This document shows positions 22,126 to 53,426 of a stretch of 64,000 nucleotides of DNA, piece after piece; the first letter of the stretch is position 1, and each line of letters starts with the position of its first letter. The notes under the pieces were generated by a model, which did no database searches, was not told where the DNA came from, and saw only the letters and a program-made list of their open reading frames with translations. The translations under genes were made by a program, and so were the position numbers. The DNA is from the human T2T-CHM13v2.0 reference genome, Homo sapiens, in assembly GCA_009914755.4 (NCBI GenBank), contig CP068257.2, positions 19,840,001-19,904,000 on the forward strand, written 5' to 3'.

Positions 22126-22169
22126 TGCCCTTTAACAAAGTACAGCACAATGATGAACATATGAGTGCA

Positions 22170-25321: not shown

Positions 25322-25622
<301 letters not shown>

Positions 25623-28600
25623 AATAACAATAAATTTTAAAACAAAATGTTTGTACTTGCTAAAATCTAGGAAGGTTTTGTATAAAAGTGGAGAAGTTCT
25701 AGTTTAAAAAAAAATACTGCTATAAGCAACAAGTAACAAGAAGCTACTCTAAACTGAATGTTTTTAAAATAATAGATTTAACAAATGAAATAATAACATA
25801 TGTATATAATGACTTGGAATTCCCAAAGTACTTTCTTGCTTGAGCCTAAAAGAGCATTTTCATTAAGATAACTAGATATGTATATCACCATTTTACCAAC
25901 AATGAAACTGGGAATGAAACAACAATATTATTTAGATATTTCCAATTGTATTATATGGACCACAAAATGGGTGAAAAATATAATTCACTCTGAAGATATA
26001 AAATGTTAGAATTTCCAAGTGCATTTATATCAACTCATCTTTTTATTTTTCTGTTTTATAATGTGCATTACATATTTCAATATATATTATAAAATACTAC
26101 CTGTTTATAATTTAAAATAAAAACACCCATCTTGGAAGTGGATACTCAGCTCTTCTCTAGATATATACAGGAAACAATTTTAAAAGTTTTCTAGAAGGAA
26201 GGAAGAATATAAAATTCAATCATGGTTGCTGTTGAGTGTGCTGTTTATTTTTTTAAATTTTGAATGAATGTCAAATGATATTTTTAATCATCCTTGCTAA
26301 TGAAATTTGCCATGATTTTTCTCTTTTTTCTCTAATTGATACAATTAAAGGAGTATTGACTAAACATTGGAAACCTCAAAAGTACAAACACTTCTTTCAA
26401 ATAAGGAGTTTTAATGTGAATTAAAATTGAATAAATCTATCCATTTAGGGATGCACTACAGGTAGCAAAAATGCAAGAGGCCCCACCTGGTGTGATGCAG
26501 AAGAAAAACCTGTTCAGAGAAATGGAAATAGTGTTACATTGTGCTCGGATTGCTAGTATCAGTGGTTCCATATAAAATTCAGTGAATTTTATAACTTGCG
26601 TAAATCAAAATTTTCATTTTCCTTTTTTTCTACCTGTAATTACAACACATGCAAATGCGATCTGAAAGTCATGTTCTTTCAAATATATAAAGATAAATAT
26701 TTTGGAATAATTTTTTTCTTACCACCCACAAATATATAAAGAAAACATTTATACATATATTTCTAATTATCTATGTAGTTTAACTGAGAGAAGTCTATCA
26801 AAGTCCAAACATGAATCTTAACTCATTTAAACTATTTGGTAAGTAAGTTTGTGATTAACATGTAAGGTCTTCCCTGTAGAAGATAGGAAGTTTTGTTAAT
26901 ATAAGACATCTCTCTTCACAACTCCATAATGTTGAAGAGTACTATTTTATTTCGTGACAAGTGGCTTCTGTTAAGAAATGTAAAGGATGCTGTTTGGTTT
27001 TATACTGGAAGAACATTATGAATACAGTTTATTCTCAATATCCCCACCATTTTTAAAGCCGTGAGCATTTAATTTTAAAAAAATTATTTTTGAACACTAT
27101 TTTGCTCACCTAGTCTAGTATCTGCTTTGATTGATTCTTTCTACATTCTGCTACACATTGACTCTTTGAACTACATTTTACTCTTTGTATATTCAAGGGA
27201 ATTCTATGGAAAATGCCACAAAACAAACATTTAATTCATCAATTTAATATAATATCCAGGTTTATAAGGAATAGGTAATCTTGGTAGACTGCTTGCCTAA
27301 CATAACACAACAAGAAGCGTTGTATAAATCTCAGAAATGTTAATTGGTTTTTAAATTAGTGCAATGCATTTTTCTTTAAAACTATGTATTATCTCAGAAT
27401 GTGTCTTCCATAACGCAAAATTTTGCCATAATGTTAACTATTACCAGTATGCCCTTGTTAATGTAAATATCATATCCATTAGCTCCTTTGTCGTGTCTTT
27501 TGTAATTCAATGGATGAAATTATATAAGGGAATTTATAATGCTCCCTAAGTAAATATGGACTTGAAGTATAATATTTCTAAAGAGTTATGTTAATTTTAT
27601 TAATTCTATTTTAGTACATTTTAGGCAACCCTTCTGGTTCTGCACTATTTTATTAGACAGTCAATCAATGTTTATGAAGCATACATGGATTAATGTTCCT
27701 TTTTTTTTTTTTGCTATGTAGCTGCAGAAGTCTTTAGACTATCCAGATGTTTGACTTCTTAAGTAGCTGTCAATTCTGACCTAGATGGAGCCCTGCTGCA
27801 GAAAGATGCCTACTCCACCTTTCTCCACACCAGAAATGCAATCAAAACAAGACTAATTGACTGTGTTCTTGTAATTTTTGAGAAATTGCCCTTTAAGTTT
27901 CAGTATACCAAATTCAAATATTAAAAATTACAATCATAGTTTTACTTCAGTAATTTACAAAGCCATTCAAATCCAAATCAGCAATATTTTAAGAAGTATC
28001 CCTGTGAAGTCCAACACTGATAATACATTTCCCAGAAATTGGTAAATAAGAGTAATTAGATACCTTCCAAATTTTTAAAAAGTCTCTATCCCCTGGAGGA
28101 AACATTTCTACTGACTAAAGTATTTTGCGAGAAAAATTTTGCCTAGTTGTTTTGCTTGACTATATTAAGTAAATTTAATGTTTTCAACATTTTGACACTT
28201 TATATTAAGTATTTCTCAAACCATTTTGAATAGAAGTTAGTGAAACTTTAGACTATACTCATGCCTCTCAAAGAAGATACTTTTGGGGTATGTTTTACAA
28301 TGGATAATTTCTAAAAATATTTTTTGAAACTCTAAAGAACAGTTATTAATTCTCTCAATTTTCTATCCATGTATCAAATTTATTTAATTGTAGGATTAAC
28401 TCTGCACTATTTAAATGATTCAAATTTGAGGTAATTTTGAAGAGTATGTTTTAAAATATTCTTAACTTAATTTCACTTCATAAGATTCCACAAAAGTATT
28501 GTTGAATTCATGTCTATTGACCTTAATCTACAAAGCAAACTAAAACATCCCCCATGATTAGATATCACCAGGTAGAATTTCAAGTTGCAGGGGATTTTTT

Positions 28601-30904
28601 AATCTTCTTTAGTTTTTCCTCATATACATGTATGTATTTGCTATAGACTTAGGCCAAAATTTTCCAAATATCATTTGATGTTAGGGAGTATATTGTACTA
28701 CGAAGGACGAAGTAAGAACATATAATTAAGAGTCATGTAGACTTATCACCAATGTGGAAAGATACCGTACGTAGTAATATCATCAACACCAATCAGAGTT
28801 ATTTAATGTCTTCTCTTTTCATATGCTTAACCTACTTGCCTGCTGCATCCAACAATATCTCTTATGAAAATAGCTACCAGTATTCTGGAAACAGCAACCA
28901 ATCACCATCTTAGGACTCTGACTTTTTTCTCCATGTCTTTATTGCAGCTTTCCACGTCCTGAAATTAATTTTCAGTCTACCTGGAGAAGATGATACATGC
29001 ACATAGAAAAAAGTTAAATAAAACATTGAACTATATAAGGAGTCAAAAAGCATGGCTAGTTTTATGAATCTAATAGTGCAGTGGTTTTTGAAAAGCTAGT
29101 ATTATCAAATATAATACATTTCATGGACAAATATTTTAATATTGCAGTTGGGATTTAATTTATACAACAGAAACATGAAAAGACGCATACAATAGTCCCT
29201 GCTTTAGCCAGAGATACATTCCAAAACTCTCAGTGGATGCCTGAAACCTTTGATCGTACTTAACCCTACATATACAGATTTTCCTCTACGTACATACCTA
29301 TGATAAACTTTAATTTACAAGTTAGGCACAGTAAGTTAACAATAATATCTGTTATTAAAATAGAACAATTACAACAATTTTCCAGCATCGCTAATCTTGT
29401 GTATAAGGGCCATTATTAAGTAAAATAAGGGTTATTGAACATGAACGCTTTGAGACTGACAATAGAGGGCTGAAACAGCTCCTAAGTAACTAAGAGGTGG
29501 GTAGTGTAGATAACATAGACATGCTGGATAAAGGGATGATTTGTGTCCCTGTCACAACAGAGAGGAATAGCAAGATATTTCATCGCACTACTCAGAATGG
29601 CCTCAAATTCAAAATTTATGAATTGTATACTTAAATTTTCCATTTGATATTTTTGGACCACAGTTGACTATAGATAACCGAAACTGCAGAATGCAAAACT
29701 GGATGAGGAGGGACTACTGTATATAAGACATTTGAATGAAGCTTGGATTCTCATACTTTAATACTTTGATTTTATGTTTGGCTGAAAATTTGAATGCAAT
29801 TACAAGAAGATATGGGGAAACAGATTTAGAAAGTCAATTTCCAAATTTCATGGGGTTAGAGAAAATGCAGCTCAGAGGGAAACTGATTCTCACAGTTGCT
29901 TTTAATAGTAAAATATAAACCAAATATATTTTTAACTTTTTATATTCTAAATTATTTATTCTTATTCAATTATGAAGCCCATTTTTCATAACAGCAATAC
30001 AAAATGATCATTAAAGAGGAAGCTTAAAGCAGAAATATAAGTTAGATAAATAATTTACATTGATGTTTTTCATTTAAATAGTTGTTAAATAGTTGTACCT
30101 CCAAATAATATTAAAGGTATATGGATATTGACATTTTTCTATAAGAATAATACATATTTTAATGTATTTGCTGTATTGCTGTACTGTATTTTATCCATAT
30201 CTTTTCATTACTCGTTGGTGAATATCCAAGATAAAATGTTGACTCTAACACAAGTATAAAAAGTATACAACCTGGAGTTAATTAGTGATTCACGTGTACA
30301 GTTCTCATTTTAGGGGTTAGTATGTGACTTAGGCCAATGACCTCTCTGGATCTCAGTTTTCTTTTATGTAAATTAGAACTGATAATATTGTTTTCCTACC
30401 TTATAAAGTTACCATAAAATTTACACCATAAGTCGTAAGTGTAAGTATTCTGATGATCTTAAAAAATAAAAAATGGATTTACAATTATTTAAATTATTAC
30501 TTATGCTCAGGTTTGATTTCCTAAGTAATAAAACCATGATTAACTAATAAAAATGAATGTTCTGGATGTTATTGTGAAAATACATCATTAGTAGTGCCCG
30601 AATCTTAATGATGTCATTTCATATGTGCTTATGGTTTTATTTGTGAAACGTCCAGAGTACAAATAGTGGACTTTTTATGCCAGAGTAAATTGGTGAGAGA
30701 AAATAATTAAAATACTTAACTTTTATAGTTGTAACAGCCTAACCTCATGAGATATGAGAAAGTATAAGCATTTAAATACATCCTCAAGGTGACATTTAAT
30801 ATATATATAATATGTATATACATACATAGAACATAACTTTCAAAAGACAAAACTTATAAACTTATTATTTTTCAATTTTAATTTTTTTTCAGAGAATAGT
30901 ACAT

Positions 30905-31135
30905 TTGTATATTTGTGGGGTACATGACAACTTTTGATACAGGCATACAATGTGTAATAATCAAATTAGGGAAAATGGTGTATCCATCACCTCAAGCATT
31001 TATCTTTCGTGTTACAAATAATCCAATTATACTTTTAGTTATTTTTAAATGTATAATTATTATTGACTATAGTCATCCTGTTGTGCTATTAAATACCTGA
31101 TCTTATTCTATTTTTAACACAAACCTATTTGAAGT
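30905..31135 (+). mobile_element. Short L1 (ancient L1M-type) fragment, sense on + strand
   Basis: tgtggggtacatgacaacttttgatacaggcatacaatgtgtaataatcaaattagggaaaatggtgtatccatcacctcaagcatttatctttcgtgttacaaataatccaattatacttttagttatttttaaatgtataattattattgactatagtcatcctgttgtgctattaaatacctgatcttattctatttttaac is the canonical L1M ORF2-3' segment. Confidence 0.75.
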
Positions 31136-31289
31136 TCACTTCTATCCTCTGCAATGACAAAAAGATACTTATTTTTTCATAAAAATAACTTCAAGCAACC
31201 TACGATTGTAATAAGTTTATAAAGTTAATTTTCTATATATAGAAAAAAGTACTAGCTATTAGTATTTTAGCAATTCTTCACCATAATAA

Positions 31290-31540
31290 AATAGGGCTCC
31301 TATATGGTTAAAAAAGAGTAGGATCTTAATCTGATGGGATCAATGGCCTTAAAAGAAAAGGAAAAGAGAGTTCTCTCTGAGTCTCTATCCCACAAGTGAT
31401 CACACAGTGAGAAGGAAGCTGTCTGCAAAGCCAGGAAAAGAGCCCTCACCAGAATCCAATCATGCTGGTACCTTGACCTCAAACTCTAAACCACCATAAC
31501 TGTTAAGAAATAAATTTCTTTTGTTTAAGCCAAAAAATGA
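31290..31540 (+). mobile_element. MaLR-type (MLT/MST-like) LTR fragment, 3' end
   Basis: ..caccagaatccaatcatgctggtaccttgacctcaaactctaaaccaccataactgttaagaaataaatttcttttgtttaagccaaaaaatg resembles the conserved MaLR LTR 3' end (..caccagacaccgaatctgctggcgccttgatcttggacttcccagcctccagaactgtgagaaataaatgtttgttgtttaagccacccagtct..). Family assignment is by recollection only. Confidence 0.4.
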
Positions 31541-33594
31541 AGATGTTTTACATATATAATTTTTCTGAAAGCTTTTCTAAAGATAAAAATGAAGCATATA
31601 ATTATACTAGTTTAATGCTAAAAAGGTCACAGGATGAAATACTTGTCATTTAAAAGCTAACTAGCCAAACCTGAATTATTAAAAAAAAACTTACTTTAGC
31701 CTCAAGAGAATAATCATTACTTAATAAGAGATAGTCTTCCACTTTAGATTACTGCTGAAAAGATGTGCTTACAGAATAGTTTAATGTTTAACATTAGATA
31801 ATTTTTAGTTGAAATATCATTTTTATAATACTAAATATCAATTTTATAATATTAAAATAATTATAAGCAGTACTTGCTAGATTTTTACTTTGTACTGGGC
31901 AATAAGTGCTGGAGGTTAAGTACATTACCACATTCACACAATCTTCTCAACAAACTTGTGACCTATTTTTGGTTGTTATTTTTATTATTACTGTCTCCAT
32001 TTTAATAAAGAGGCACTTCAGTCTGAGAGATACTAGATGGCTTACCCCAAAAGCTAATGATGGTAAGTGATGAAACCAGGCGTTTCTTACTCCTGATGCA
32101 GTGTTTTTAAGAACAAAGCAAGAATCTTCATACTTAGGAAAGGTAAATGGGAATGTGTATAATAAATCAGATATATTGTCATTGATCTATAGGATTTATT
32201 GCCTAGAACTATCTGCATGTGAGAAGACCCTAAACGAAGTAGCAGAAGAGTGATCCATTCAAACCAATAGGATCATCATGTGAATGTATACACCAGGGCT
32301 AAACCACAATTGTATATTTTTTTCCAATTTTTTTTCCTGAGCTTTAGTTGTTGAGTAATGTGCAACATATCTAAAATGAATACATTTGAAATTGAAGAAA
32401 ATATTGTATTTTCATATAATCAAACATGTTTCATAGGTAAGTTGATTTCACTGTATTGTAATGATAGATTCAGAAGTGAGTCATTTATATTTGGAAATGG
32501 ATAATGGAAGAAAATATATACCATGATTTTTTTTAACTGCAAACAGAAATCCTAGCTTGCTTGATATATTATTTTTGTAGCATGAGGCAATAGTTCTTTT
32601 TTAATTCATGCATAGAGATATACCTTTGAAAAACTGATAACTAATCTTTGGAATCTCATTCTACACTTGTTTATTGAGATTTTGCAAACTAAAAAAAAAT
32701 ATTAAATCCCCATGGCTGAGAAAATACTATTCTTTCTCTAGTTATTCCTCAAGTGGTTTCATGTGCAAAGATAATAGTTCTGTCGAAACCAGAAAATTCC
32801 CGGATACTAGCTAAGCAATTTTACTAAACTATCACCATCTAAGTAGCATGTTAAAATTTGGTATAGGAAGGTATTGAAATTGACATTAATACATTATTTT
32901 TTTTCACTACCTTGTGTTTATCACTAGTTTTTCTTCATGAAAAACAAAATAATTTCAATAAAAATTATACTTGCTTGGACATGAGCATTCTAAATTTGTT
33001 AATTCAGTGACTAAGTAATTCTCATTTGCCGTATCATGATGACATTGTAGAAGTATATTTGCAAGTGTGAACCACAAAGTTGCTGGGATGAAGTGCCAGG
33101 CAAAATCACAAATTGAATGATTTTTTTTTTCAAAACTGAGCTGTTTGCTTTTAGAATTATAAGAAATAAAAATAACTTAAACCTATTTTTTGAAAAAAAA
33201 AATAAAATAATGTAGACATGACACTCAGTCATCCTACAGAACTAGTATTCAGACAAGTCTGACATACTCAAAGTCGACCTGCTAGTGCTTGCTTTTGTAT
33301 GTTAGCAGTTGTTCTGATTCCTTTGGATCACTATTTCCTTTGGATCACTATTTCTTCAAGTCATTATTAAAATATTAAACCTAAGTTTAAAAATATCACA
33401 TAGGAAAACTTTTTATACATATATAAAACAAATACAGGTTTTATATACATATTTTTTCAGGAGTGGTTTTCTCACAGTTCAAATTTACATCTATACCCGT
33501 ATCTGTCACTTGTGTTTCACATCAGTTACATATTTGAACATGCAGTTATTATGCTGAGTAATAAATGCATTTTGTCATTAAAAAGACTAAACTG

Positions 33595-33892
<298 letters not shown>

Positions 33893-34884
33893 CTAAACTG
33901 TTATGCAAGCTAATTCTTAACATGTGTTAAGAATCATTTTGAATGCCTATCAAATTATATTTCTTCCTTATTCTTCTAGATAATACATTATCACCAGTTT
34001 ATTTCTTTTCATTGTTATTATTTTCTGATCCATATTGTTATAGCTGCGGAGTCTACCCTCAGATTCTACTACAAACACGTAACACGTGATTCATCTTCAT
34101 TACTACTTGCTCCACTTGCCATTTCAATTTTATCAATCAGAATACTTCATCTTCTTCCTATTCACCTCTTTCATGGTTACTTTCTTTATGTCTTTTGGGA
34201 TTTCCTGCAACCATATGCCAAAGAAAAGTGGCTTCCACCTTCTCCTACCTTCTCATGGTAGAAACTAACAAAAGGTCATAAATACCATAGCTATAAAATG
34301 TTGCCTTTAATCTATTTGTTAAAATATTAACTGGAGAAATACAGGTGATCCATTTCTTGCCAAATGATGATTCCTAAAATATTCATAAAAAGGTATATTT
34401 AAATACATTCTCTGTTAAAATAACGCGCTCAGAACCATCCATTTTCAAGTTTAAGTTTTAAAACTAACATAATCTCATATAGAAGATTTATTTAACACTT
34501 TTCACAGAAGTTTTGATTATAATTTTCTTTTAACATTATGATCTATTAATGGGTGTCATTTTCTGATAAAGTACATTTAGGGATATGATAATATTCATTA
34601 TCTTCCCCACAGGGATTCAAGAGGTATATTTAAAAGAAGAGGTACTTAGACACTTTTTCTTTGTTAATAAAAAAAAAAGAAGTTTGAAAAAGATAGTCAC
34701 ATAATTAACAAATCAATTGCTTAAAATATTGTTTGAAACCAGGGAATAGGCGTCAACAATCATGAAATTGAATTCTGCCGGTTACTATGACTTTATTCTG
34801 TCTCTTAAATTGAATTATTGGAAAAGATTTATTTTTAAAATAATCATCTAATATTTTCTAATTTAGAGGTTTAATACTTTTTTT

Positions 34885-34886
<2 letters not shown>

Positions 34887-34918
<32 letters not shown>
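34887..34918 (+). repeat. NCAM2: Uninterrupted poly(T) mononucleotide run of 32 nt forming the polypyrimidine tract 10 nt upstream of the TM-exon 3' splice site
   Basis: ctttttttcc(T)32acttttaag|ACACGCTG. Not attached to any Alu. A long homopolymer of this kind is expected to vary in length. Confidence 0.85.
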
Positions 34919-34924
<6 letters not shown>

Positions 34925-34928
34925 TAAG

Positions 34929-35133
34929 ACACGCTGTTTAATGGTCTTGGGCTTGGAGCAGTAATTGGCCTGGGAGTTGCTGCACTGCTGCTAATTCTTG
35001 TGGTAACAGACGTCAGCTGCTTCTTTATTCGGCAATGTGGGTTGCTGATGTGCATCACTAGGAGAATGTGTGGAAAGAAAAGTGGCTCCAGTGGCAAAAG
35101 TAAAGAACTCGAAGAAGGAAAAGCTGCATACCT
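34929..35133 (+). CDS. NCAM2: NCAM2 transmembrane exon (membrane-proximal stalk, TM helix, start of cytoplasmic tail); phase 1 in, phase 2 out
   Basis: Acceptor (T)32acttttaag|ACACG. With the G from the upstream exon the frame reads [68 protein letters not shown] plus CT. Donor CCT|gtgagt. This closely parallels NCAM1 exon 16 (..GAIVGILIVIFVLLLVVVDITCYFLNKCGLFMCIAVNLCGKAGPGAKGKDMEEGKAAF..). The antisense ORF 34924..35148 in the track is spurious. Confidence 0.9.
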
Positions 35134-36469
35134 GTGAGTATCAGGCATCTACATCATGTCATATTAAACAAGCGCCACAGTCAAGCTCGAGTGCTTTACC
35201 TGAGGGCGTTGTAGGGTAAAGGAGTAGGGTAAAGAGTTTGATTATGCAACATTGGACACTGCACTGCCTGCTCTCTGACCTTGAAACTATGTATCCTTAT
35301 ATATAACCTAGAACAAAGTGACTTTGACAACAGTTTATTCAAAATTAAACCTCACAATGGGATCTTCACTGAAAAGAATCACTACCATGATTTATAGATG
35401 ATAAACATATAGATGGATGGATAGTTGTGCAAATGTATTCCATTTTGATTTATTCCACCGGTTTTGTTTATATTAAATAAAAGAAAGGCTTCAACAATAA
35501 TCTGAGCTAAAAACTCAGTTGAACTGAGTTAAAAACAACAAAATTGTGGCAACTTCTACAAACGTAAGGCATGATTACAACAGGCTTCATGATTTTTTGT
35601 ATAGAAAATATGATATGTGCTATAAAATACAATATTACAGATTCTGAATATACTATTCTAAAATTTGATCAAAAGTTGATTACTTGTTAGAATTTGGAGC
35701 TCTCTGTGTAGTTCTATTTAGTTAAGCAGATATAATTTTCAAGAAAGTATGTAGATCGATTTTTTAGAAAATTATTTTGTCCTGTAAAAGGGAAATTACA
35801 ATGTTTTAATATTTCCATTTTGTTTTATTGTGTTTGTCTTTACATAGATATAGATCTAATTTCAAAAGTAGAATATGATCAATGCAAAAAATTCAGCAAG
35901 CACAGGAAATCATACACAAACATATGCACACACGTTTGTGTGTTATGTGTGGGTTTGTATACATATACATGTGTGCATTAAACACAGCAATCAAAAAATA
36001 AACAGTCTTAAGAGTTCAGGACATTCCCTTTATTATTTTTAACCTTAAGTCCTTTCTACTGCATACTTTTTCTGACACATACAAAAGTGTTGAAAGACTT
36101 TAAAGCAAACAACTAGTTGGGTTCCACAATTAACATTTTGTGCTATTTTGTCATATGTTTATTCATACGTTAATCCCTTATATTTTCTTGAATTTCAAAA
36201 AATCATCACACAACCCCTACATAATTCAACTTGCATATCATTACATACAGTCTAAAAGGTGTTTACATTTATGTAAGTAAAGCCACAGAATAAAATGCAC
36301 CAAATGTTTCAGTTGAAGAGTTTTGACAAATGTTTTTATATGTGTAACACAAAGCCATATCACAATTCAGAACCTTACCACCACATTCTGGAAGTTCTCT
36401 CATTTCCTTATCCAGTCCACCCACATTAACCTCCCTCACCCAGGCCATTGCTATTCCTGATTTTTCACC

Positions 36470-39400
36470 ACAGATAGTTTTTGCTTATTTTGGAACTTCA
36501 CATAAATGGATTCCTGCAGTGTCTACCCTTCTGTATCTGACATCTTCAAAAATGTTGTATTAGGACCATTCATGTTTTGTATTTCAAGGACTGATGCTTT
36601 TTTATTGTTGAATCATTTATATTCTTTTTCTATGCATCTGTTGAAGCGTGGAAGGTCTCATACTGTTTTATAGACACATTTGTCTTGGCTTTATCATATA
36701 ATTTTGTTCCATTGTATCATTTACACCTTAAATTTTAAGGATAATTCTTTTATTTGAAAAGTTTTTACTTTAAAGTTTTGGCTTTTAAAATATATGCCAA
36801 AATATATATCATTTTTTACATATTTCTGCATTTTTGCTAATTGTTTTAACATTTTTACTCTCATGGAAGTATAATATTCTAAAAGGCTTAGCTATTATCA
36901 GTGTACAGTTTAATAAATATTCACAAGCTGAGCATGCCCATTTTTAACGCTCAAATCAAGAAAAAGAACTTTATTATCTACGTCTCCTTTCCTGTCCCTA
37001 TTCAATCTCGTGCTAAGCAATATCCTGACTTCATAGCACCATAGATTACTTTTTCCTGTTTTGTACTTTACATAAATGAGTTTATACTTGTTGCATATGG
37101 GGTATTTTGATACAGGCATACAATATGTAATAATCAAATCAGAATAATTGTGGTATCTGTCACTTCAAACCTTTATCAATTCTTTGTGCTAGGAACACAT
37201 TCCAATTCTCCTCCTTTAGTTATTTGTAAATATCTGATACATTATTTTTGGCTGTTGTCAATCTATTGTGACACCAAATACTGAATCCTATTCATTCTGT
37301 CTAACTGTATTTTCATACCCATTAACTGTTCCTACTTAATCCCCCATTCCCCCTTCCTTGTTACCTTTGCTAGCCTCTGCTAACAATTATTCTTTTCTCT
37401 TTCTCCATGAGTTTAAGTTGTTGTTGTTGCAGCTCCCACATATGAATGAAAACACACAATATTTTTCTTTCTGCACTGACTTATTTCACTTAACATAATT
37501 TTCTCCAGTTCCACCAATATTTCCACAAATGATTTTCCATTGTGTATTTAGCAAATTTTCATCCATTCATCCATGGATGGACACTTAGGTCAATTCCAGA
37601 TCTTAGCTATTCTGAATATTGCTGCAATAAACATGGGAGTACAAATATCTCTTGATTTTTTTAAAAATTTTTGATATATACCAAGCAGAGGAATCACTGG
37701 ATCACATGGTAGTTTCTATTTTTAGTTTTTTGAGGAAGCTTCATGCTGTCTTCCATAGTGACAGTATTAAGTTACATTCCCACTAATCCACAAGTGTATA
37801 ATGGTTTTCATTTCTTCACATCATCATCTGGATTCATCTTTGCCTGTCTTTTGGATACAAGCCATTTTAACTGGGATGAGATGATATCTTATTATGGTTT
37901 TGATTTGCATTTCTCTGATGATGATGCTGAGCATTTTTTGTATACTTGCTGTCTACTTGTATGTTGTCTTTTGAGAGAAATGTCTATTCAGATCACTTGC
38001 TCATTTTTAATTGGATTATTTGTTTTGTTTTTTTCCTGTTTTGTTTGAGATGCTCGTATATACTGGTTATTAACTCCTTGTCAGATGGGTACTTTATAAA
38101 CATGTCCTCCTATTCTGTGGGTTGTCACTTCACTTTGTTAATTGTTTCCTTTAGTGTTCAGAAGTTTTTCAGCTTGGTGTGATCCCATTTGTCCATGTTT
38201 GCTTTGTTTATGCTTGAGAGGTATTACTCAAAGAAATTTATGCCCAGATCAATGATCTGAGGTGTTTCCCCCATGTTTACTCTAGTACTTTCATAGATTT
38301 GGTCTTCGATTTAAGTCATTATTCTGTTTTGATTTGTTCTTTGTATATGGCAAGAGATAGGGGTCTACATTCATCATCTATATATGGATGTCCAGATTTC
38401 CCAGTACCATTTATTGATGAGACTTCCCTATCTCCAATGTCTTGGCAGCTATGTTAAAAATAACTCTACTGTAAATGCATGGGTTTATGTCTGGGTTCTC
38501 TACGCCATTTCACTTGGTCTGTGTGTCTGTTTTTATGCCAGTAGCATGCTTTTTTGTTTATTATACCTTTGTAGTATAATTTGAAGTTAGGTAATGTCAT
38601 TCCTTCACTTTTGTTCTTTTGAGTCAGGATGGTTTTGGCTCTTGTGGGTCTTTTGTGTTTCCATATACATTTTACGATCTTTTTTTCTATTTCTGTGAAG
38701 AATGTCATTGGCATTTTGATAAGAATTGCATTGAATCTGTAGATTTCTTTGAGTAGTATGGACATTTTGACAACATTTATTGTTTTAATCCACCAACATA
38801 AAATGCCTTTTAATTTTTGTGTCATCTTGAAGTTTTCATCAATGTTTTATCGTTTTCATTGTAGAGATGTTTTACTTATTCACTTAAGTTAATTCCTAGG
38901 TATTTCAATTTATTTGAGCTTTTATAAATGGGATTACTTTATTGGTTTCTTTTTCAAATTGTTTCCTGTTGACATGTGGAAATGTTACTGATTATTGTAC
39001 GTTGATTTTTTATCCTGAAACATTACTGAATATATTTGTTAGTTCTAATAGTTTTTTTGGTGGAGTTTTTAGCATTTTCTAAATATAAGATCTGTCATCA
39101 TAAGAAGGATTATTTGACTCCTTCCTTTCCACTTTGGATACATTTTATTTCTTTATCTTTCTTAATTGCCCTGGCTAGGACATCCAGTACTACGTTAATA
39201 CCAGTGGTGAAAGTAGACATCCTTGTCTTGTTCCAGATCTTAGAGGAAAGGCTGTCCATTTTTCCTGGTTCAGTATGATACTAGCTTTATTATTTATTTT
39301 CTTCTACTAATTTTGGGTTGGGTTAGCTTTGGCTCTTCCAGTTCTTTAAGATGCATTGTAAGGTTATTTAGTTAAAGTTTTTCTGCTATTTTGGTGTAGG

Positions 39401-40306
39401 TGTTTATTGCTGTAATATGCCACTCAGTACTACTTTTGCAGTATCCAATAGGTTTTGGTATGTTGTGTTTCCATTATCATTTGTTTCAATAAATTTTTAA
39501 TTTTCCTTTTTAATTTCATTGACTTAATGGTCATTCAGGAGCATATTTTTTTTAATTTCCATGTGTTTCTATTGTTTCCAAAGTTCCTCTTTTTATTGAC
39601 TTTTAGTTTATTGTTTTCCGTTGTCAGAAAATATGCTTGATATGATTTCAATTTTTTGGAATTTTTCAAGAATTGTTTTGTGGCCTAACATACGATCTAT
39701 TCTTCAGAATGTTTCATGTGCTGAGGAGAAGAAAGTGTATTCTTAAAAACGTGGATGAAATGTTCTTTAAATGTTTATTAGGTCCATTTGGTCTATAGCA
39801 TATTTTAGGACTTATGTTTCTCTGTTGATTTTCTGCCTGGATGTCTTGTCCAATGCTGAAAGATGGGTTTTGAGGTTCACAGCTACGATTTTATTAGGAT
39901 CTTTCTCTCTAGGTCAAATACTATTTGCATTATATATCAAGGTTTTCCAATGTTGGGTGCATACATATTTATAATTGTTATATTCCCTTGATTAACCAAC
40001 CCCTTTATCATTTTATAATGACCTTATTCATCTATTTTTACAGTCCTTATTCAAGCATTTTAGTCATTTTCTATTAGGTTGCCTTTCTTTTCCTTACTGT
40101 TATGCAGGTGTGTTCTTTTATACAACATGCTCTACATATATAACCTGGGCTATACATATAAATTATGTATATACAATTTATTATAAGTATACATAAACCT
40201 ATATATGGTATAATTAAATTTATATTTATAATAAAATATTTACATATGAAATATAATTTTACATATAACCTCTTTTCTTATTTTTTTAACTGGCAAAATG
40301 TTGTCT
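36470..40306 (+). mobile_element. Ancient L1 (L1M-type) element(s), ORF2-3' region, sense on + strand; about 3.8 kb, possibly two adjoining fragments
   Basis: Two copies of the L1 3'-region motif: acataaatggattcctgcagtgtctaccc (36498) and ttatttcacttaacataattttctccagttccaccaatatttccacaaatgattttccattgtgtatttagc...ccattcatccatggatggacacttaggtcaattccagatcttagctattctgaatattgctgcaataaacatgggagtacaaatatctc (37470..). ORF2 sense motifs gatacaggcatacaatatgtaataatcaaatcag, ggatcacatggtagtttctatttttagttttttgaggaagc, cattcccactaatccacaagtgtataatg, gttttgatttgcatttctctgatgatgatgctgagcattttttgtatac, gtttgcaaat-like and ctgtccatttttcctggttcagtatgatactagc follow in order. Interrupted at 40307 by an Alu. Confidence 0.75.
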
Positions 40307-40572
40307 CTGGGGAGGCTGAGGCGGGTGGATCACCTGAGGTCAGGAGTTCGAAACCAGCCTGGACAACATGGCGAAACCCCATCTTTACTAAAAATACAAA
40401 CATTAGCTAGGCATGGTGGTGGGTGCCTGTAATCCCAGCTACTCGGGAGGCTGAGGCAGGAGAATCACTTGAACCTCGGAAGTGGAAGTTGCAGTGAGCC
40501 ATTGTACTCCTGGCTGGGCAACAAGAGCAAAACTTTGTCTCAAAAAACAAAAAAAAAAAAAAAAAAAAAAAA
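40307..40572 (+). mobile_element. 5'-truncated Alu SINE nested in L1, with about 32-nt A-rich tail
   Basis: tctGGGGAGGCTGAGGCGGGTGGATCACCTGAGGTCAGGAGTTCGAAACCAGCCTGGACAACATGGCGAAACCCCATCTTTACTAAAAATACAAACATTAGCTAGGCATGGTGGTGGGTGCCTGTAATCCCAGCTACTCGGGAGGCTGAGGCAGGAGAATCACTTGAACC...GTCTCAAAAAACA(A)22. Confidence 0.9.
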
Positions 40573-43500
40573 TGTTTTCTCTGGTGAACAGAAGTGCCTG
40601 ATCTTCATGTAGTTTAATATTTTAATTTGTCTCTTGTCTTATTTTTTAAATATTTGCCTATCCTGAGGTCAGTAAGGCCCTCTATATTTTCCACTAAATC
40701 TTTATCATTTCGCATTTTACCTTTAGACATACAATATACCTGAGTTAGGACTCCACACACTTTTCAGTTAGTATTTTTTAAATTATGTTTAGAAAATAGC
40801 ACTAGTAATTTTAGTAATTGAAAATGTCATTCTTTTCTCATGAATAGCAGTGCCATGGTTGTGACATCTCAGATGACAGAATTCAAATAGGCCTGTTTCT
40901 GTTCTTCTTATTCTATTCCACTTTTCACTTTCTCTATCCTTTCACCAATGCCAGACTTTATTAACCACTAAATCTTTGCCATGGTTGTTTTCTAACTGAT
41001 AGAATAAGTTCTCTAAGTTTGTTGTTCTTCAAGATCGTTTTGCTAGTCTTGACTCACATATCCATTTAAAAAATTTAAATTATTTATCCATAAAAAAATT
41101 TGCAATTACAAATTTTAAAAATGTTACAATTTGTATTGGGAGTGCATTAATTTTGCAGATTCATTGAAAGACAATCAATATCTTTGCAAGATAAACTATT
41201 TTAAGCAACAAGCCAATAATAACTTGTGTGAGCTTTGTAAATAATCTAGATTTACTTATGAAGTGAAATTTTTAAAGTACCTTATTCTTTCACATGCAGT
41301 CCTTTTGGGTTGCTGAATATGTTTAAGCAGATGGTGTTCTGCACGAGTCCAAAGAGGGCTATTCATGAGGGTCATGACACCACTTGACTTGTGAGAAAAT
41401 GAGTGCAGTAACCTTAGGACCAATTCCCTTACTTCAGTAAAGAGTTATTCATTAGAATGCATTATAACTAAACAATAAATTTTTTAAAAAATGTTTCTAC
41501 CTATAACCACTTGTCTTAAAATACATGTACTCATGAAACATAGTGAAATCATCAAGATAGTCTCTAAATTTTAAACATAATTATTTTTATTTTTTGTTAG
41601 AACCAAAGCAAATTGCTTTCCTAACAAGATATTATCTCTAATGTACTTTTTAAGTTTGAAAAAATGCTGACTTTTCCCAATTCTCATTTCATTGAATAAA
41701 GTAATTTCGATAGAATTAATTCAGTGGAAAATTTAATTTACTACCTGTAATACCATAATTAAAATCCAATATATTATGGACATTCACCCTGGGTATGACC
41801 ATGAACTAATACTGATAAGACACTATAAACAATGACAGCTTAAACCCGTGTAAAGTACTGTATAATGACCACACTTAGCTAGAATTAACTGTTGGGTTTA
41901 GGTGTTTGAAATCTTCTTATTAAATTTTATCATTTATAACTGAAGAAGACGGCAATTTTAGAGTTTTTGTATTCCTTGCCTATAAAAATAGACCATGGGC
42001 CATGTAATTTTAAACTTTCTTTACAAATCTAAAATTATGTCACTCCAATTATGAATTGTTCAGTAAATAACTCTACAGTTGTTAAGATCTCAGGATTTTG
42101 AGGGAGCCACACAGAAGCATACCGTATGTCCATGTATCGAATGGAAGTAGAAATGACAAAAACACAAGTTTTAGAAAACAAAAGGAACAAAAGGCATCCT
42201 ACCCTTGCAATTACTCCCCAAAGAACCACATCTACAGTTTGTACTCTTTCGTGTCTGGCTTCTTACAGAAAAGCTTGTATTACTCACAAAAGGAGAGTAA
42301 GGTCTACAGTCTCTGAGAAATAAGAATAAAAATCCTTGCACAGGCATTTCATAACATCAGTGCTAACAAATGGAGAGACCATTGAGATAAAAATTAGTTT
42401 GGCAAATAATTATTAGTTTGGGAAGTAATATATTTTAATAATCTAATTATAAAAGTTTTTTTTTCAATTCTAAGGCAGAAGTAATCATTACTTTTCTTAA
42501 AATGAAACGCCATATGCCAACTGAGATTTATTTTTCAAAATTGAAAAACAAAGGCTTTTAATCCACTTTTTAAATATTGAAATTCTTCTGAATTTCTATG
42601 TGCCTAAAATTCAAGAAACTTAACTGTTAAATGTTCCTGTAATATCACATTTTATTTTGTATACCAGTGTTTTTTTCTCTTCTCTTTTTTCGAATCTGGC
42701 TCTTTCTATTGAGAAAATCTAGAAGTCAACCATCTGTATTTTTTTTCCACTTTCAACTTCCTCCCTCACTGCTTAATCTCTTCTATTTTTGGCTTATGCT
42801 TCACTAAAGCTGCTCTTTTCAGTCGAGAGATTTTATGTTGATCAAATCTCATGTCTTACTTTGGTTTTCAAATTCTCAAACCATCTTGGAGAATGTGATA
42901 TTGTTTACATGTTCCCTCACCGACATTCTACCATCCCCTTCCAAGACTCTGTATCATCTTTTTTCTCTGTGTTTCCTCCTCAGTTCTCTTTCTTTATGTA
43001 TAATTTATCCCATAACTCCAAATATCACCTCTACATGTGTGAATACCAAATAAATGTCTGCGTCTGGTCCTTATCATTCTCTTGGGCATCAGGATGCCTG
43101 TGTGTGTCTATTTCTAAACAAAATGGCAGTAATTGAGAATGTCTGAAATCTAACTTAGAGTGATTACTCCCAAATTATTTTCTGTTTCTGTGGTCCTCAT
43201 CTCTGTCAATGGAATAAGTATATTTCCAGTTCCACTTCAATTCCACTTCAAATGCTTCTAGCTCAATAAAGATTTTCTATTTCATCAACTTGGCTAAAAT
43301 CCTGTTTTATCTGTGTACTCCTGTTTCATTCCATTTGTCATATTCTTATATCCTTTATTACATATTTTTATATTCATTTCTTAGCATTGTTTTAAATAAG
43401 CCATTCTGAATAAATTACAAGCTCATTGATTATTGGCATTGGCTCATATTAACATTAACATTCTACCAAATGGTCTTTTTCTGTCACATATAAGAAGACA

Positions 43501-43650
43501 CTAGTTTCTTCCTTCTATTCTGTAGATAGTATGCAAGGAACTAGAGGGATAGAAAGCTATGTGTTCTTCTTGTGATATATTGTTTTCAAAACCTAACTCA
43601 AAAGTCTCATCAGTTTTCCCTCAGTAAGTACTGACTTAAAACTTTAACAC

Positions 43651-43941
43651 AGCCAGGGGCGGTGGCTCACCCCCGTAATCCCAGCACTTTGGGAGGCCGA
43701 GGTGAGTGGATCACCTGAGGTCAAGAGTTCAAGACCAGCCTGGCCAACATAGCTAAACCCTGTCTTTACTAAAAATACAAAAATTAGCTTGGCGTGGTGG
43801 TGCATGCCTGTAATCCCAGCTACTCGGGAGGCTGAGACAGGAGAATCGCTTGAACCTGGGGAACGAAGATGGCACCAATAGACTCCAGCCTGGGCTACAG
43901 AGCAAGGCTCCATCTCAAGAAAAATAAAAATAAAGTAAAAT
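43651..43941 (+). mobile_element. Alu SINE (older, with right-arm internal deletion and degenerate A-rich tail), flanked by a 13-bp TSD AAAACTTTA(A/T)CAC
   Basis: AGCCAGGGGCGGTGGCTCACCCCCGTAATCCCAGCACTTTGGGAGGCCGAGGTGAGTGGATCACCTGAGGTCAAGAGTTCAAGACCAGCCTGGCCAACATAGCTAAACCCTGTCTTTACTAAAAATACAAAAATTAGCTTGGCGTGGTGGTGCATGCCTGTAATCCCAGCTACTCGGGAGGCTGAGACAGGAGAATCGCTTGAACCTGGGGAACGAAGATGGCACCAATAGACTCCAGCCTGGGCTACAGAGCAAGGCTCCATCTCaagaaaaataaaaataaagtaaaat. TSD copies at 43638..43650 and 43942..43954. Confidence 0.9.
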
Positions 43942-46900
43942 AAAACTTTATCACCTTGTAAGAGAGTACCATTTTCAGCCTATTTTTAAGTAGCTGTGAA
44001 AAGATTCCAAGAACCAGTGGAAAAATAAATGAGCTTGAATCCCAGTACACTTGGAGAAGTCATTCTGACTTCTGTGAACATTTGTTTCTTTCTTCATAAA
44101 ATGAGAATTTACAGTTCTGCTCCACATGTTGTGTGACATAAGTAAAGAAATGCATGCAATATATGTAAAATTACCCTTATAATGCCTGGCATTTAATAAT
44201 AATTTATGCATCAGGGTTAGAAATACAGGAGAATCGATTCTTCCTAGCTACATTTTTTTTACATCACCAAGCCTTTTTCAACTTTACTAGATTGTTTGTC
44301 TATGACCATTTGTTATGTATGTTCTGTAAGGGATATTTTTACTTCATGAGATGATAATTAGATAACATATTTCAGTTCAAAAATTAGATTCAACTGTTCT
44401 CAAACAAAATGCAAACTGCATATTTATTGGACATGGAATAAACTAAAGAACAAACATAAATTAGCCTCTACTGCACACTAAATGAGATACAAATAAGAGA
44501 CATGGTAAATACAGTGGAATCAATTCATTTCCAATATTTTTTGCTTTCTTCGTCATTGCCTTTTATGCCTCCTAATAATTTTCTGTACTTTTACATTGTC
44601 TTCCTAACTAAACAAACAGATCACAAAGCTTAGTTTTAGTTGTTTTATTTAAATAGAGGCACAAGATAAAAACACATAGAATAAATATTATATATAATAA
44701 CATCATTACATATACTATATATTATGCTATTATATATAAAGGTATAGATAGAGATATATATTAAATTTTATAAGTCTTCTCTTTTGCCCATCCACTGAGC
44801 AAATATTTATGGAATAAATGCCAGGTTATAAGCACTTTTATAGAACTTAGGAACAAATTAGTAAGCAAAGCAAACAATAATTTTGTTCACATGGAGTTCA
44901 AGTTATTGTGGAAGATGGCAGTTAATAAACGTTAACTAAAAATGAAATGTCCAGTAGTGATAAGCACTAAATGAATGAAAGGCAGGATGTTAAGTTGTTA
45001 TTTGATACTGTGTCATAAATACCTCTCAGGGAGGTGACATTAAGCTTAAGGGTGGGTAATAAGGAGCTGGTAATACAACAATCAAGGGACAGAACATTCT
45101 AGGCAGGTGTAAATTAATGTAAAGATTCTAACATGGGGATGAGCTTGCTATGTTCAAAGGCAAATGACGCTTATTGGTGAGAGTCAGAGAAAGAGAAACT
45201 GGTATAAATATCAGATTGGGAAATTATCTAGGGGCCAAAGTATTATTCCATCTTCTTGGGTCAATGAAAAGGGTCTGAATTTTGTTTGAAATAGAAGACT
45301 ACTAGAAGAGTTTTAAGAAGATGACTTTTGCTATTGTGTGAAGAATGGGTTATTGGACATAATAGGTTTAGGGGAATGATTTAAAATCAGGGAGCCCAGT
45401 TAAGAGGAGCTTGAAGTAATCCAGATGAAAAAAGTTGGGGTTTTTTGGCCCAAGGCAGTGGTATTACACTTATATAAGAGTGAGTATATTTCAGATATAG
45501 TTGGGGTAGTGTCAATCACCTGATTGATTTTATATTTGGATTAGGGAAAGAGAGAAATCAAAATGTACCTTCATGATGTTGTTTGGTTGTGCAGACAACC
45601 AGGTGTATGCAGTTGTGCTGTTTATTTTTATATAACCCTGTTATTTGTTAATTTGTCCACCAACACCTCTGTTTTTAAAACCTGCTGAGTTTAATTAACC
45701 TTAAGGAATTGGGAAAATGAAAATATGTGGTTAATTCCATGCTTATTATTGATCACACAATTTTTATATAAATTTCTTCTGCTTTGGAAAAACAGATTTC
45801 AGCTCTTTTCAAAAATGTAGTGTTCAAGTTTGAAAAAGATATAAAATCTTAATGAGGAATAGGGTTAACTGATTTGACTGTTCGGATTTATACTATCTTT
45901 TACACATGATCCCAAGCATTCTGAGACTAGCTCTTTCATGTTTTCAAAACTTATGACTATGATGATTTATTAAAACTGCATTAATTACACCTAAAGCATT
46001 TTTGTTTTAAGAGCATCTCAAGGCAGAGAAAAAAAAATTAAGATCAGTGTCATAGAGGATAGTATTAGTGTAAAGTTCTATTTTAATTTGGTTCTTATCA
46101 ATTTAAATTACTATATATCTTACATTCTCAAGGGTTTTTCTTATCAAAATGACTAATAATACTTTTTAATCAAATTATCTTTTTACTGTTATTTACTCAA
46201 GCATAATTTACTAAGCATTAATATTAAAAATATTTATTAAACATCTATACAACAAGAGACAACTCTAACTTCTGTGAATACAACTTGTGAAAAAGCAGAC
46301 TCATTCCTTTCTATCAGGAAACTTTTATTCTGGCAGGAACCACATTTTAATTTAAAAAAATCAAATGATAAATAATTTTTATAAATGTTATGTAAAATAA
46401 ATAATTTACCTACTCATATTTATGTAAGCAAGTTGTGAAGAACTAAAGCATAAGGAAGAGTAGGAATTAACTAGCTCGTGTGTGTCTGGTGGGGTGTGTG
46501 GAAGATGGTTCTTCAGGCAGAGGGAATGGACTGTGTAAAAGGCTTTGTTATAAGAGAAAGTAAGATTTGATACAAAAACTGAAGAAATATGTATGAAATA
46601 TCAATTGTATTTTCTGAATAACAGTGACAAAACAAACCAAAACAATACTCCCGGTTTTCAGCCCAGCATGCAAAGAGATTAAAAGTTGCCACTCTCTCCT
46701 AACAAACCAAAAGCTAAACAAACTGAAATCAACAATTCTTAGATTCATAAGAAAAATGTGGTGTTAGTGCAAACTACCGTCCTGAAAATTGAAGAGGCAG
46801 AGAGGCAGATGCAGAAAATCACAACTTATCAGAGCAGAAACCTGTAAGCAGAAACGTCTGTGAGAACCAGTTCAGGAATAGGAAAAAAATGTAAAATGTT

Positions 46901-53182: not shown

Positions 53183-53426
<244 letters not shown>

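What the first reader, a model, noticed from the sequence alone, without database searches (positions are those of the whole stretch)
34887..34928. 32-nt uninterrupted poly(T) run forming the polypyrimidine tract of the TM-exon acceptor
The TM-exon 3' splice site reads ctttttttcc(T)32acttttaag|ACACG. A T32 homopolymer is at the extreme of what persists stably in human DNA. It is almost certainly length-polymorphic in the population and prone to somatic and PCR slippage. It sits exactly where U2AF65 binds to define the TM exon. The TM exon competes with the upstream GPI-type terminal exon (10529..10635) and its poly(A) site. Tract-length alleles could therefore shift the TM:GPI isoform ratio of NCAM2, by the same mechanism as the CFTR intron-8 poly-T tract and exon 9 skipping.
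Basis: partly seen in the sequence, partly recalled or inferred. Interest (0 to 1): 0.5.

Follow-up and report, generated by a model that had tools for sequence, protein, structure and literature searches.

The report
Long poly-T at NCAM2 TM-exon acceptor
A run of 32 uninterrupted T's sits 10 bases upstream of the exon encoding the membrane-spanning segment of the adhesion protein NCAM2; it is a lineage-specific slippage expansion of the normal splice-site pyrimidine tract, almost certainly variable between people, but nothing here shows that it changes which NCAM2 isoform is made.

Summary
T32 occupies window 34887..34918 and is the longest homopolymer in the window. It lies 10 nt upstream of a conserved AAG|A acceptor of the 205-nt NCAM2 transmembrane exon (34929..35133).

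The other long A/T runs I traced are Alu tails; T32 has no retroelement body beside it. Two non-human orthologous contigs carry ordinary 20-30-nt tracts whose longest T runs are 4 and 3. In one of them the TTTAATAC branch-point-like motif lies at -27; in this window it is at -55. I read the tract as an in-situ slippage expansion inside a pre-existing polypyrimidine tract.

Length polymorphism is very likely on general microsatellite knowledge, but I could not test it because no independent human or primate copies could be retrieved. The proposed effect on the TM:GPI ratio is untested.

The CFTR analogy is weak. T32 is far above the 5-9 T range where tract length limits U2AF binding. Published hnRNP C/U2AF65 competition at uninterrupted U tracts predicts, if anything, the opposite direction.

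Verdict: a real, ordinary kind of feature in a notable place, with modest interest.

The parts
34887..34918 (+). Uninterrupted T32 (U32 in the pre-mRNA); the finding itself
34878..34886 (+). T7-CC, the 5' part of the same pyrimidine run. Together with T32 it forms an unbroken 42-nt pyrimidine run.
34870..34877 (+). TTTAATAC, a branch-point-like motif (yUnAy; A at 34874, position -55). It is conserved in the orthologous contig L001, where it lies at -27. It sits just inside the 60-nt AG-exclusion zone, whose last upstream AG is at 34867-34868.
34919..34928 (+). ACTTTTTAAG, the last 10 intron bases. The AAG|A acceptor is weak and conserved (L001 and L007 have TTTCAAG|A). It contains a second yUnAy match (TTTAC, A at -10) that is probably too close to the acceptor to serve as a branch point.
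34929..35133 (+). NCAM2 transmembrane exon, 205 nt, followed by donor GTGAGT at 35134
3365..3545 (+). Upstream constitutive exon (end of FN3-2, ...PPKPNIIK + G). Its donor AAG|GTAAGC at 3546 is shared by the GPI and TM acceptors.
   Evidence: the query sequence was recalled from memory; the match was 100% over 60 aa
10529..10635 (+). Coding part of the GPI-type alternative terminal exon (D)KCCEANKGENGSQSWQLNAAGFSFIIAISLSCVF*. Its acceptor is CAG|A with a poor pyrimidine tract. ATTAAA at 10679 and AATAAA at 10720 follow the stop.
60594..60713 (+). Next cytoplasmic exon ([40 protein letters not shown])
63903..64000 (+). Start of the last coding exon ([32 protein letters not shown]...); it runs off the window

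Best explanation
T32 is a mononucleotide microsatellite that expanded in situ, by replication slippage, inside the pre-existing polypyrimidine tract of the NCAM2 TM-exon acceptor. The expansion happened in the lineage of this (primate, presumably human) sequence.

The ancestral acceptor probably resembled those of the two outgroup contigs. It had a branch-point motif TTTAATAC, about 23 nt of interrupted pyrimidines (T4-C-T4-A-T4 in L001), and a weak AAG|A. A few substitutions fusing the short T blocks would lift the run above the roughly 10-nt slippage threshold, after which it grew.

The tract still works as a polypyrimidine tract. No AG occurs in the 60 nt before the acceptor, so a branch point at -55 can scan to the authentic AG. 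A very strong tract may also offset the poor AAG|A.

The tract is almost certainly length-polymorphic. Within the common range its length is probably close to neutral for splicing, because it is far above what U2AF65 needs.

Shown here: position, purity, exon identity, no Alu and no room for a retroelement body beside the tract, short tracts in two outgroups, and the conserved branch motif and AAG.

Inferred: the slippage origin, the branch point used, polymorphism, and near-neutrality.
For: - Sequence and coordinates.
- Exon identity.
- The traced long A/T runs in the window abut an Alu 3' end. T32 does not: the exon starts 10 nt downstream, and the upstream flank is unique intron that aligns with L001.
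- Both flanks of T32 have collinear counterparts in L001 (TTTTTTTC~CTTATTTTC; T..TACTTTTTAAG~TTTTATTTTCAAG). The run therefore maps onto a T4 block and not onto an inserted segment.
- The longest T run at this acceptor is 4 in L001 and 3 in L007.
- The AG-exclusion zone is 60 nt in this window and 31 nt in L001. The conserved TTAAT lies at -55 here and at -27 in L001.
- Among 13 Alu tails in the window, pure-run length rises with Alu identity to the AluY consensus, used as a rough proxy for youth (rho 0.63, p 0.02). Runs of 21 or more occur only on Alus at least 92.5% identical to that consensus. This fits a recent or ongoing expansion of T32.
- The A/T slippage threshold is about 10 nt (PMC2940325), and the longest repeats mutate nearly every generation (bioRxiv 10.1101/2025.01.09.631797).
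- The review says the GPI-isoform mRNA is less stable, less expressed and more temporally restricted than the TM isoform's (PMC8471948). If that holds in human, the tract does not cripple the TM acceptor.
Against: - No primate orthologue and no second human copy could be obtained. The timing of the expansion and its polymorphism are therefore inferred.
- The species of L001 and L007 are unknown. For L001 the exon is 89% and the intron 73-75% identical to the window, which suggests a non-primate placental mammal.
- Near-neutrality is an argument from saturation and not a measurement. Moving the branch point from about -27 to -55 and creating a prime hnRNP C site could both matter.
- A 7-nt direct repeat, ACTTTTT, flanks TTCC-T32. 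This is also what a tail-only retro-insertion would leave.
Confidence: 0.6

Rival explanations
1. Tract-length alleles tune U2AF65 recruitment to the TM acceptor (longer means stronger) and so shift the TM:GPI isoform ratio, as the CFTR intron-8 T5/T7/T9 tract does for exon 9.
For: - The architecture is as described: one donor at 3546, a proximal GPI terminal exon with poly(A) signals, and a distal TM exon.
- The TM acceptor has a weak AAG|A, which should make it depend on its tract.
- Isoform choice is tissue-regulated in mouse: TM plus GPI in olfactory bulb, TM only in hippocampus (PMC7949136).
Against: - A 42-nt pyrimidine run is far above the range in which length limits U2AF65 binding. 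The CFTR effect occurs between 5 and 9 T (own knowledge).
- The GPI exon is transcribed 24.4 kb earlier, and its pyrimidine content at -23..-4 is only 0.50. Its own weakness and its poly(A) site are the more likely control points.
- The outgroups manage with longest T runs of 3-4.
- No association data were available.
Confidence: 0.12
2. Repressor-platform model. The uninterrupted U32 is a high-affinity site for hnRNP C, or for other U-run binders such as ELAVL or TIA proteins. These compete with U2AF65, so a longer tract weakens the TM acceptor in cells rich in the repressor. The result would be more GPI isoform or more TM-exon skipping, and skipping shifts the frame. Length would then act in the opposite direction to CFTR.
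For: - In PMC3629564 (read) the strongest hnRNP C sites are continuous U tracts of 9 or more. hnRNP C1 displaces U2AF65 from U10 in vitro. Interspersed C relieves the competition, and hnRNP C binds the tracts of the exons it represses.
- The tract here is 32 pure U's, and its only C's lie at the 5' edge.
- Skipping the 205-nt exon joins G+GAAAGATGG... and reaches a stop after 8 codons, 93 nt before the last junction. This would make the transcript a likely NMD target (inference).
Against: - By the review's account the GPI-isoform mRNA is the less expressed one (PMC8471948), so any repression of the TM acceptor cannot be strong in neurons.
- No CLIP data could be consulted.
- The T7-CC segment and ACTTTTT could still load U2AF65 next to a bound hnRNP C.
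Confidence: 0.15
3. Origin rival. The run is the A-rich tail of an extremely 5'-truncated, antisense LINE-1-mediated retro-insertion (a tail-only insertion), not an in-situ expansion.
For: - A 7-nt direct repeat, ACTTTTT, flanks TTCC-T32.
- The site ACTTTTT/AAG matches the L1 endonuclease preference TTTT/AA (own knowledge), read directly.
- Most other long A/T runs in the window are retroelement tails.
Against: - The implied empty site, TTTAATACTTTTT|AAG, would leave only about 13 nt between the branch motif and the AG. L001 has 27 nt, with collinear matches to both flanks of T32.
- A 7-nt T-rich repeat inside a pyrimidine tract is easily due to chance.
- No element body is present.
Confidence: 0.08
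4. DNA-level reading. The poly(dA:dT) tract matters mainly as DNA, for example as a nucleosome-excluding tract, a site of replication-fork stalling or fragility, or a hotspot of somatic and MSI instability. It has no RNA-level role beyond being a tract.
For: Only general knowledge about long poly(dA:dT) tracts. The length and purity are shown.
Against: Nothing in the window points to a DNA-level function. The position between branch motif and acceptor is fully explained by the pyrimidine tract having seeded the slippage.
Confidence: 0.05

Closest known systems
CFTR intron 8 poly-T (5T/7T/9T) and exon 9 skipping
   Same: A length-variable T run inside the polypyrimidine tract of a coding exon's acceptor.
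   Different: CFTR varies over 5-9 T, where the tract becomes limiting; here the run is 32 T inside a 42-nt pyrimidine run. CFTR's outcome is cassette-exon skipping. Here the competitor is an upstream terminal exon with its own poly(A) site. No allele or phenotype data exist here. (The CFTR facts are from own knowledge.)
Canine merle PMEL: poly(T) of an antisense SINE at the intron 10/exon 11 acceptor (PMC7349775)
   Same: A long, slippage-prone T run directly at an acceptor serves as the polypyrimidine tract and increases the distance from branch point to acceptor. Its length decides the splicing outcome and is somatically unstable.
   Different: Merle is a recent SINE insertion with a body, a 15-bp target-site duplication and a cryptic acceptor inside the element. 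Here there is no element body and no alternative AG between the branch motif and the acceptor.
hnRNP C-guarded U tracts of antisense Alu elements (Zarnack et al. 2013, PMC3629564)
   Same: A continuous U run of 9 or more immediately upstream of a 3' splice site, which is the sequence class where hnRNP C outcompetes U2AF65.
   Different: Those tracts guard cryptic exons that must stay silent. This one precedes an essential, conserved coding exon that is used. Binding was not tested here.
Exons with distant branch points and long AG-exclusion zones (Gooding et al. 2006, PMC1431707)
   Same: A 60-nt AG-free zone, with the only well-placed branch-point match at -55. Going by the paper's title and abstract, it describes this class of exons; the link to regulated splicing is from my own knowledge, as I did not read the body.
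   Different: The distance here comes from homopolymer expansion and not from a conserved architecture; the outgroup has -27. The branch point has not been mapped.
Mononucleotide T runs at acceptors that are hit in mismatch-repair-deficient tumours (HSP110 T17, MRE11 T11, ATM T15), and the polymorphic TOMM40 '523 intronic poly-T
   Same: Intronic T runs whose contraction alters splicing (HSP110, MRE11, ATM), or whose germline length varies widely (TOMM40, about 12-40 T). T32 would be a prime MSI target.
   Different: All of this is from own knowledge and was not checked here. Those splice-relevant tracts are 11-17 T, where contraction brings them into the limiting range. No NCAM2 data were found in the library.
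NCAM1 exon 15 (GPI, NCAM-120) versus exon 16 (TM, NCAM-140/180)
   Same: The paralogue produces GPI-anchored and transmembrane isoforms from one gene by alternative splicing (PMC8471948, PMC7949136). The exon order, a GPI terminal exon ahead of the TM exon, is from my own knowledge.
   Different: No comparable homopolymer at the NCAM1 TM acceptor is known to me; this was not tested.

Membership tests
Polypyrimidine tract of a functional 3' splice site | Lies between a branch-point motif and the acceptor AG, with no intervening AG | tested here: met
   TTAAT (A at 34874) lies at -55. There is no AG from 34869 to 34926. Pyrimidine content is 0.97 over -43..-4.
Polypyrimidine tract of a functional 3' splice site | The downstream exon is a real, conserved coding exon in the correct phase | tested here: met
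   The 69-aa translation matches NCAM2 of fish and snake and two mammal-like genomic ORFs with E values from 1e-24 to 1e-35. The phase fits donor G at 3545.
Polypyrimidine tract of a functional 3' splice site | The junction is observed in RNA | not testable with these tools
   No transcript data were available. The only support is that the recalled human protein reads ...NIIK|DTLFNG... across the junction.
Length-polymorphic mononucleotide microsatellite | Pure run above the slippage threshold of about 10 nt | tested here: met
   32 uninterrupted T's; the threshold is from PMC2940325.
Length-polymorphic mononucleotide microsatellite | Different lengths in different individuals or assemblies | not testable with these tools
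   Exact-ORF look-ups and DNA scans for other human copies found nothing.
Retroelement poly(A) tail (antisense) | Tail abuts the 3' end of an Alu, L1 or SINE body | tested here: not met
   No Alu lies closer than 33600..33871, and that one has its own A19 tail. The exon begins 10 nt after the run. L1 was not searched for, but there is no room for a body.
Retroelement poly(A) tail (antisense) | Target-site duplication and an empty site in the outgroup | tested here: inconclusive
   A 7-nt ACTTTTT repeat flanks TTCC-T32. However, L001 aligns to both flanks with a T4 block in between, not with the predicted empty site.
CFTR-type splicing-modifier poly-T | Tract length lies in the range that limits U2AF65 binding | tested here: not met
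   T32 lies within a 42-nt pyrimidine run, against 5-9 T in CFTR (own knowledge).
CFTR-type splicing-modifier poly-T | Alleles of different length give different exon usage | not testable with these tools
   No genotype or RNA data. No paper in the library links NCAM2 to such a tract.
hnRNP C-repressed U tract | Continuous U tract of 9 or more at a 3' splice site | tested here: met
   U32 ends 10 nt from the acceptor; the criterion is from PMC3629564.
hnRNP C-repressed U tract | hnRNP C crosslinking, and de-repression after knockdown | not testable with these tools
   No CLIP or knockdown data were accessible.
Alternative GPI-anchor terminal exon (NCAM-type) | Same phase as the TM exon, hydrophobic C-terminal tail after small residues, stop codon, poly(A) signal, and conservation | tested here: met
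   - The phase matches (GAT versus GAC).
- The tail AAGFSFIIAISLSCVF has a 9-residue-window hydropathy of about 2.1 to 2.7.
- ATTAAA is at 10679 and AATAAA at 10720.
- Three other-species ORFs end in the same motif, at 66-69% identity and E about 1e-6 against 1.8 billion proteins.
- GPI attachment itself was not tested.

The most novel reading that the evidence does not exclude
A primate- or human-specific U-tract expansion has turned the acceptor of the NCAM2 transmembrane exon into a length-tunable switch. Common T-run alleles, read by competition between hnRNP C or ELAVL proteins and U2AF65 and through the distance from branch point to AG, would measurably change the balance between TM isoform, GPI isoform and frameshifting TM-exon skipping in brain or olfactory neurons. 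This would create a hidden STR-type splicing QTL in a chromosome-21 neurodevelopmental gene.
Probability: 0.12. Interest if true: 0.6.

Novelty: new member of a known kind. Interest (0 to 1): 0.3.

Why it matters
If tract length did modulate TM-exon use, it would be a common regulatory variant that SNP-based studies miss. It would sit in a gene linked in the literature to neuronal wiring and to chromosome-21 phenotypes. It would also be a natural test of two opposing rules for long U tracts at acceptors: more U2AF65 binding, or more hnRNP C binding.

Even if the tract is neutral, three points follow. First, polypyrimidine tracts can seed large homopolymer expansions without destroying an essential acceptor. 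Second, the site will give trouble for short-read variant calling and PCR across this exon boundary. Third, it would be an obvious target of mismatch-repair deficiency.

As it stands it is a well-documented lead and not a demonstrated regulatory element.

Tried and rejected
1. Independent human or primate copies, needed to see length variation and date the expansion.
   - Exact-ORF look-ups failed for the sense ORF, the antisense 74-aa ORF and two neighbouring ORFs.
   - A protein-guided scan of metagenome contigs found no relative.
   - Exact DNA patterns found nothing in metagenome, genome or viral contigs.
   - I ran no further search on the antisense ORF. The exact look-up had already shown it is not on record for human-identical sequence.

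2. GPI-exon homology by the word-indexed protein search. The exhaustive phmmer search succeeded. Its top 20 hits are repetitive low-complexity proteins and were discarded as spurious. Only the three full-length matches were kept (two end at the protein's C-terminus; P0027 reads on past the human stop).

3. RNA structure around the tract, for example pairing of the upstream A10 with the U run. The minimum free energy was no better than shuffles (z = +1.1), so this was rejected.

4. Alu-tail origin was rejected. The tail-only retro-insertion is kept as a low-probability rival.

5. Species of the outgroup contigs. No B1, B2 or Alu and no tRNA-derived SINE were found, so they remain unidentified.

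6. Literature linking NCAM2 to a poly-T, mononucleotide or polypyrimidine tract. Only incidental co-occurrences turned up.

Full report
**Observation**

The window carries an uninterrupted run of 32 T's at 34887..34918 on the + strand. It is the longest homopolymer in the 64 kb. Tandem Repeats Finder merges it with the preceding T7-CC into one T array at 34878..34918.

The local sequence is TTTAATAC-TTTTTTT-CC-(T)32-ACTTTTTAAG|ACACG. For this base composition the expected number of T>=32 runs is 1e-10 to 2e-9, so the run is the product of a mutational process. Calling it 'the extreme of what persists' is too strong, because A27, A25, A24, T24 and A21 occur in the same window.

**What surrounds it**

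- **TM exon.** Translation of 34928..35134 gives [69 protein letters not shown]. Its database relatives are NCAM2 (named for Labeo rohita) and genomic ORFs from other vertebrates. The exon is 34929..35133 (205 nt) with donor CCT|GTGAGT.
- **Upstream exon.** tblastn with recalled NCAM2 sequence places the preceding exon at 3365..3545, with donor AAG|GTAAGC.
- **Downstream exons.** The next cytoplasmic exon is at 60594..60713, and the last exon starts at 63903.
- **GPI-type exon.** The exon at 10529..10635 is in the same phase. It encodes (D)KCCEANKGENGSQSWQLNAAGFSFIIAISLSCVF*, with a hydrophobic tail. ATTAAA (10679) and AATAAA (10720) follow it.
- **Conservation of the GPI exon.** An exhaustive phmmer search found three other-species genomic ORFs carrying the same motif, two of them ending with it: DTCCEA..GSQS..L.AAGF plus a hydrophobic tail. 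Identity is 66-69% and E is about 1e-6 against 1.8 billion proteins.

The literature describes TM (NCAM2.1) and GPI (NCAM2.2) isoforms in human and mouse (PMC8471948). In mouse, both occur in olfactory bulb and only TM in hippocampus (PMC7949136).

**Origin of the run**

A blast with an Alu consensus shows that the other long A/T runs I traced abut the 3' end of an Alu: A25 at 5658, A21 at 6441, A27 at 12378, A19 at 33872, T16 at 48715, T15 at 53191 and T15 at 62451. T32 does not. The exon begins 10 nt downstream, and the upstream flank is unique intron.

Exact look-up of two homologous ORFs returned orthologous genomic contigs from unidentified hosts.

- **L001-L006.** The exon is 100% identical to the window at the protein level and 89% at the nucleotide level, and the intron blocks are 73-75% identical. 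This suggests a non-primate placental mammal.
- **L007.** The exon is 94% identical at the protein level, so the source is more distant.

Their acceptors read GAGTTTAATACACTTATTTTCTTTTATTTTCAAG|ACAC (L001) and TTATTAATAAATTCTCTCTTTATTTCTTTCAAG|ATAC (L007). The longest T runs there are 4 and 3.

Both flanks of the T32 run have collinear counterparts in L001, and the run itself corresponds to a T4 block. The parsimonious reading is that substitutions fused short T blocks past the roughly 10-nt slippage threshold (PMC2940325), and the run then expanded in situ.

The alternative is a tail-only L1-mediated insertion flanked by the 7-nt repeat ACTTTTT. This would imply an ancestral distance from branch motif to AG of only about 13 nt, whereas L001 has 27. 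I keep it as a low-probability rival.

Within the window, the pure-run length of Alu tails rises with Alu identity to the AluY consensus, a rough proxy for youth (rho 0.63, p 0.02). Runs of 21 or more occur only on Alus at least 92.5% identical to that consensus. A pure T32 therefore suggests a recent or still-active expansion.

**Splice-signal anatomy**

- **Branch-point candidates.** The last AG upstream of the acceptor is at 34867-34868, which leaves a 60-nt AG-exclusion zone. Inside it only two yUnAy matches exist. One is TTAAT (A at 34874, position -55), within the conserved TTTAATAC motif that lies at -27 in L001. The other is TTTAC (A at 34919, position -10), which is probably too close to the acceptor. 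The expansion has thus most likely converted an ordinary acceptor into a distant-branch-point acceptor of the class described in PMC1431707.
- **Acceptor strength.** The acceptor trinucleotide is the disfavoured AAG, followed by A, in all three species. The TM tract has 0.95-0.97 pyrimidines and a 42-nt pyrimidine run. The GPI exon's acceptor is CAG|A with only 0.50 pyrimidines at -23..-4.
- **RNA folding.** Local folding gives no signal (z = +1.1).

**Mechanism**

I consider it most likely (0.6) that the run is an expanded but still functional polypyrimidine tract whose exact length is nearly neutral. It is far above what U2AF65 needs. By the review's account the GPI-isoform mRNA is the less expressed one (PMC8471948). 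The GPI exon emerges 24.4 kb earlier during transcription and has weak signals of its own, so the decision is probably taken mainly there.

A better-founded functional rival (0.15) runs the other way. Continuous U tracts of 9 or more are the strongest hnRNP C sites. hnRNP C displaces U2AF65 from U10 in vitro, and interspersed C's relieve this (PMC3629564).

The outcome of a weakened TM acceptor need not be more GPI isoform. Skipping the 205-nt exon shifts the frame and reaches a stop after eight codons in the next exon, which would probably trigger NMD (inference).

The canine merle allele shows that the length of a poly(T) at an acceptor can decide splice-site choice through the distance from branch point to acceptor (PMC7349775). 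That case offers a cryptic AG, which is absent here.

**What could not be tested**

All attempts to retrieve other human or primate copies failed.
- On general knowledge a pure 32-nt A/T run is almost certainly polymorphic (PMC2940325; bioRxiv 10.1101/2025.01.09.631797).
- No paper in the searchable library connects NCAM2 with this tract.

**Verdict**

- The functional part is untested, and its analogy is weak.
- It is a new member of a known kind: a slippage-prone poly-T in an acceptor tract.
- Interest is about 0.3.
- The most novel reading still open is a length-tunable, primate-specific splicing switch in NCAM2. It has roughly a one-in-eight chance and would merit about 0.6 if true.

Noticed in passing
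window 5376..63403 (13 Alu 3' ends; e.g. 12096..12404): Thirteen Alu 3' ends were scored. The pure A/T tail length rises with identity to the AluY consensus (Spearman 0.63, p 0.02). Tails of 21 or more occur only on Alus at least 92.5% identical to that consensus (A27 on the 96% copy at 12096..12377).
   Followed up: partly
window 59213..59236 and 59706..59721: T24 and T16 runs with no Alu beside them lie 1.36 kb and 0.87 kb upstream of the cytoplasmic exon (60594). The sequence between them looks like an old interspersed repeat. Their origin was not determined.
   Followed up: no
window 34925..34927 versus L001 1626..1628: Position -4 of the acceptor is T in the window (TTTTTAAG) and C in both outgroups (TTTCAAG). 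The T creates an in-frame TAA just before the exon.
   Followed up: partly
window 33872..33890 and 34669..34678: A same-strand A19 (an Alu tail about 1 kb upstream) and an A10 (about 210 nt upstream) could in principle pair with the U32 in the pre-mRNA. The local fold that includes the A10 was no better than shuffles. The A19 was not tested.
   Followed up: partly
P0003, P0009 (fish NCAM2 fragments) versus window 60594..60713: The annotated fish proteins join ...EEGKAAYL directly to KLPLKEE..., that is, the TM exon to the last exon. They lack the 120-nt KDGSKEP... exon that is present in the window and in the snake fragment P0008.
   Followed up: no
L001 2526..3746 versus window 44499..45744: Conserved intron blocks lie about 0.9-2 kb downstream of the TM exon in L001 and about 9.4-10.6 kb downstream in the window. 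The primate intron has therefore gained roughly 8.5 kb here, presumably from repeats, or the other lineage has lost it.
   Followed up: no
P0027 (other-species GPI-exon ORF): In one species the ORF continues past the position of the human stop (...FWCMFWCCGKGKQ...). The GPI-exon stop is therefore not at a conserved position in every lineage, or this copy is degenerate.
   Followed up: no
window 3546 -> 60594 (hypothetical junction): Skipping the 205-nt TM exon would read G+GAAAGATGGATCAAAAGAACCAATAG. This stops after 8 codons, 93 nt before the last exon junction. The product would be an anchorless ectodomain and the transcript a probable NMD target.
   Followed up: partly
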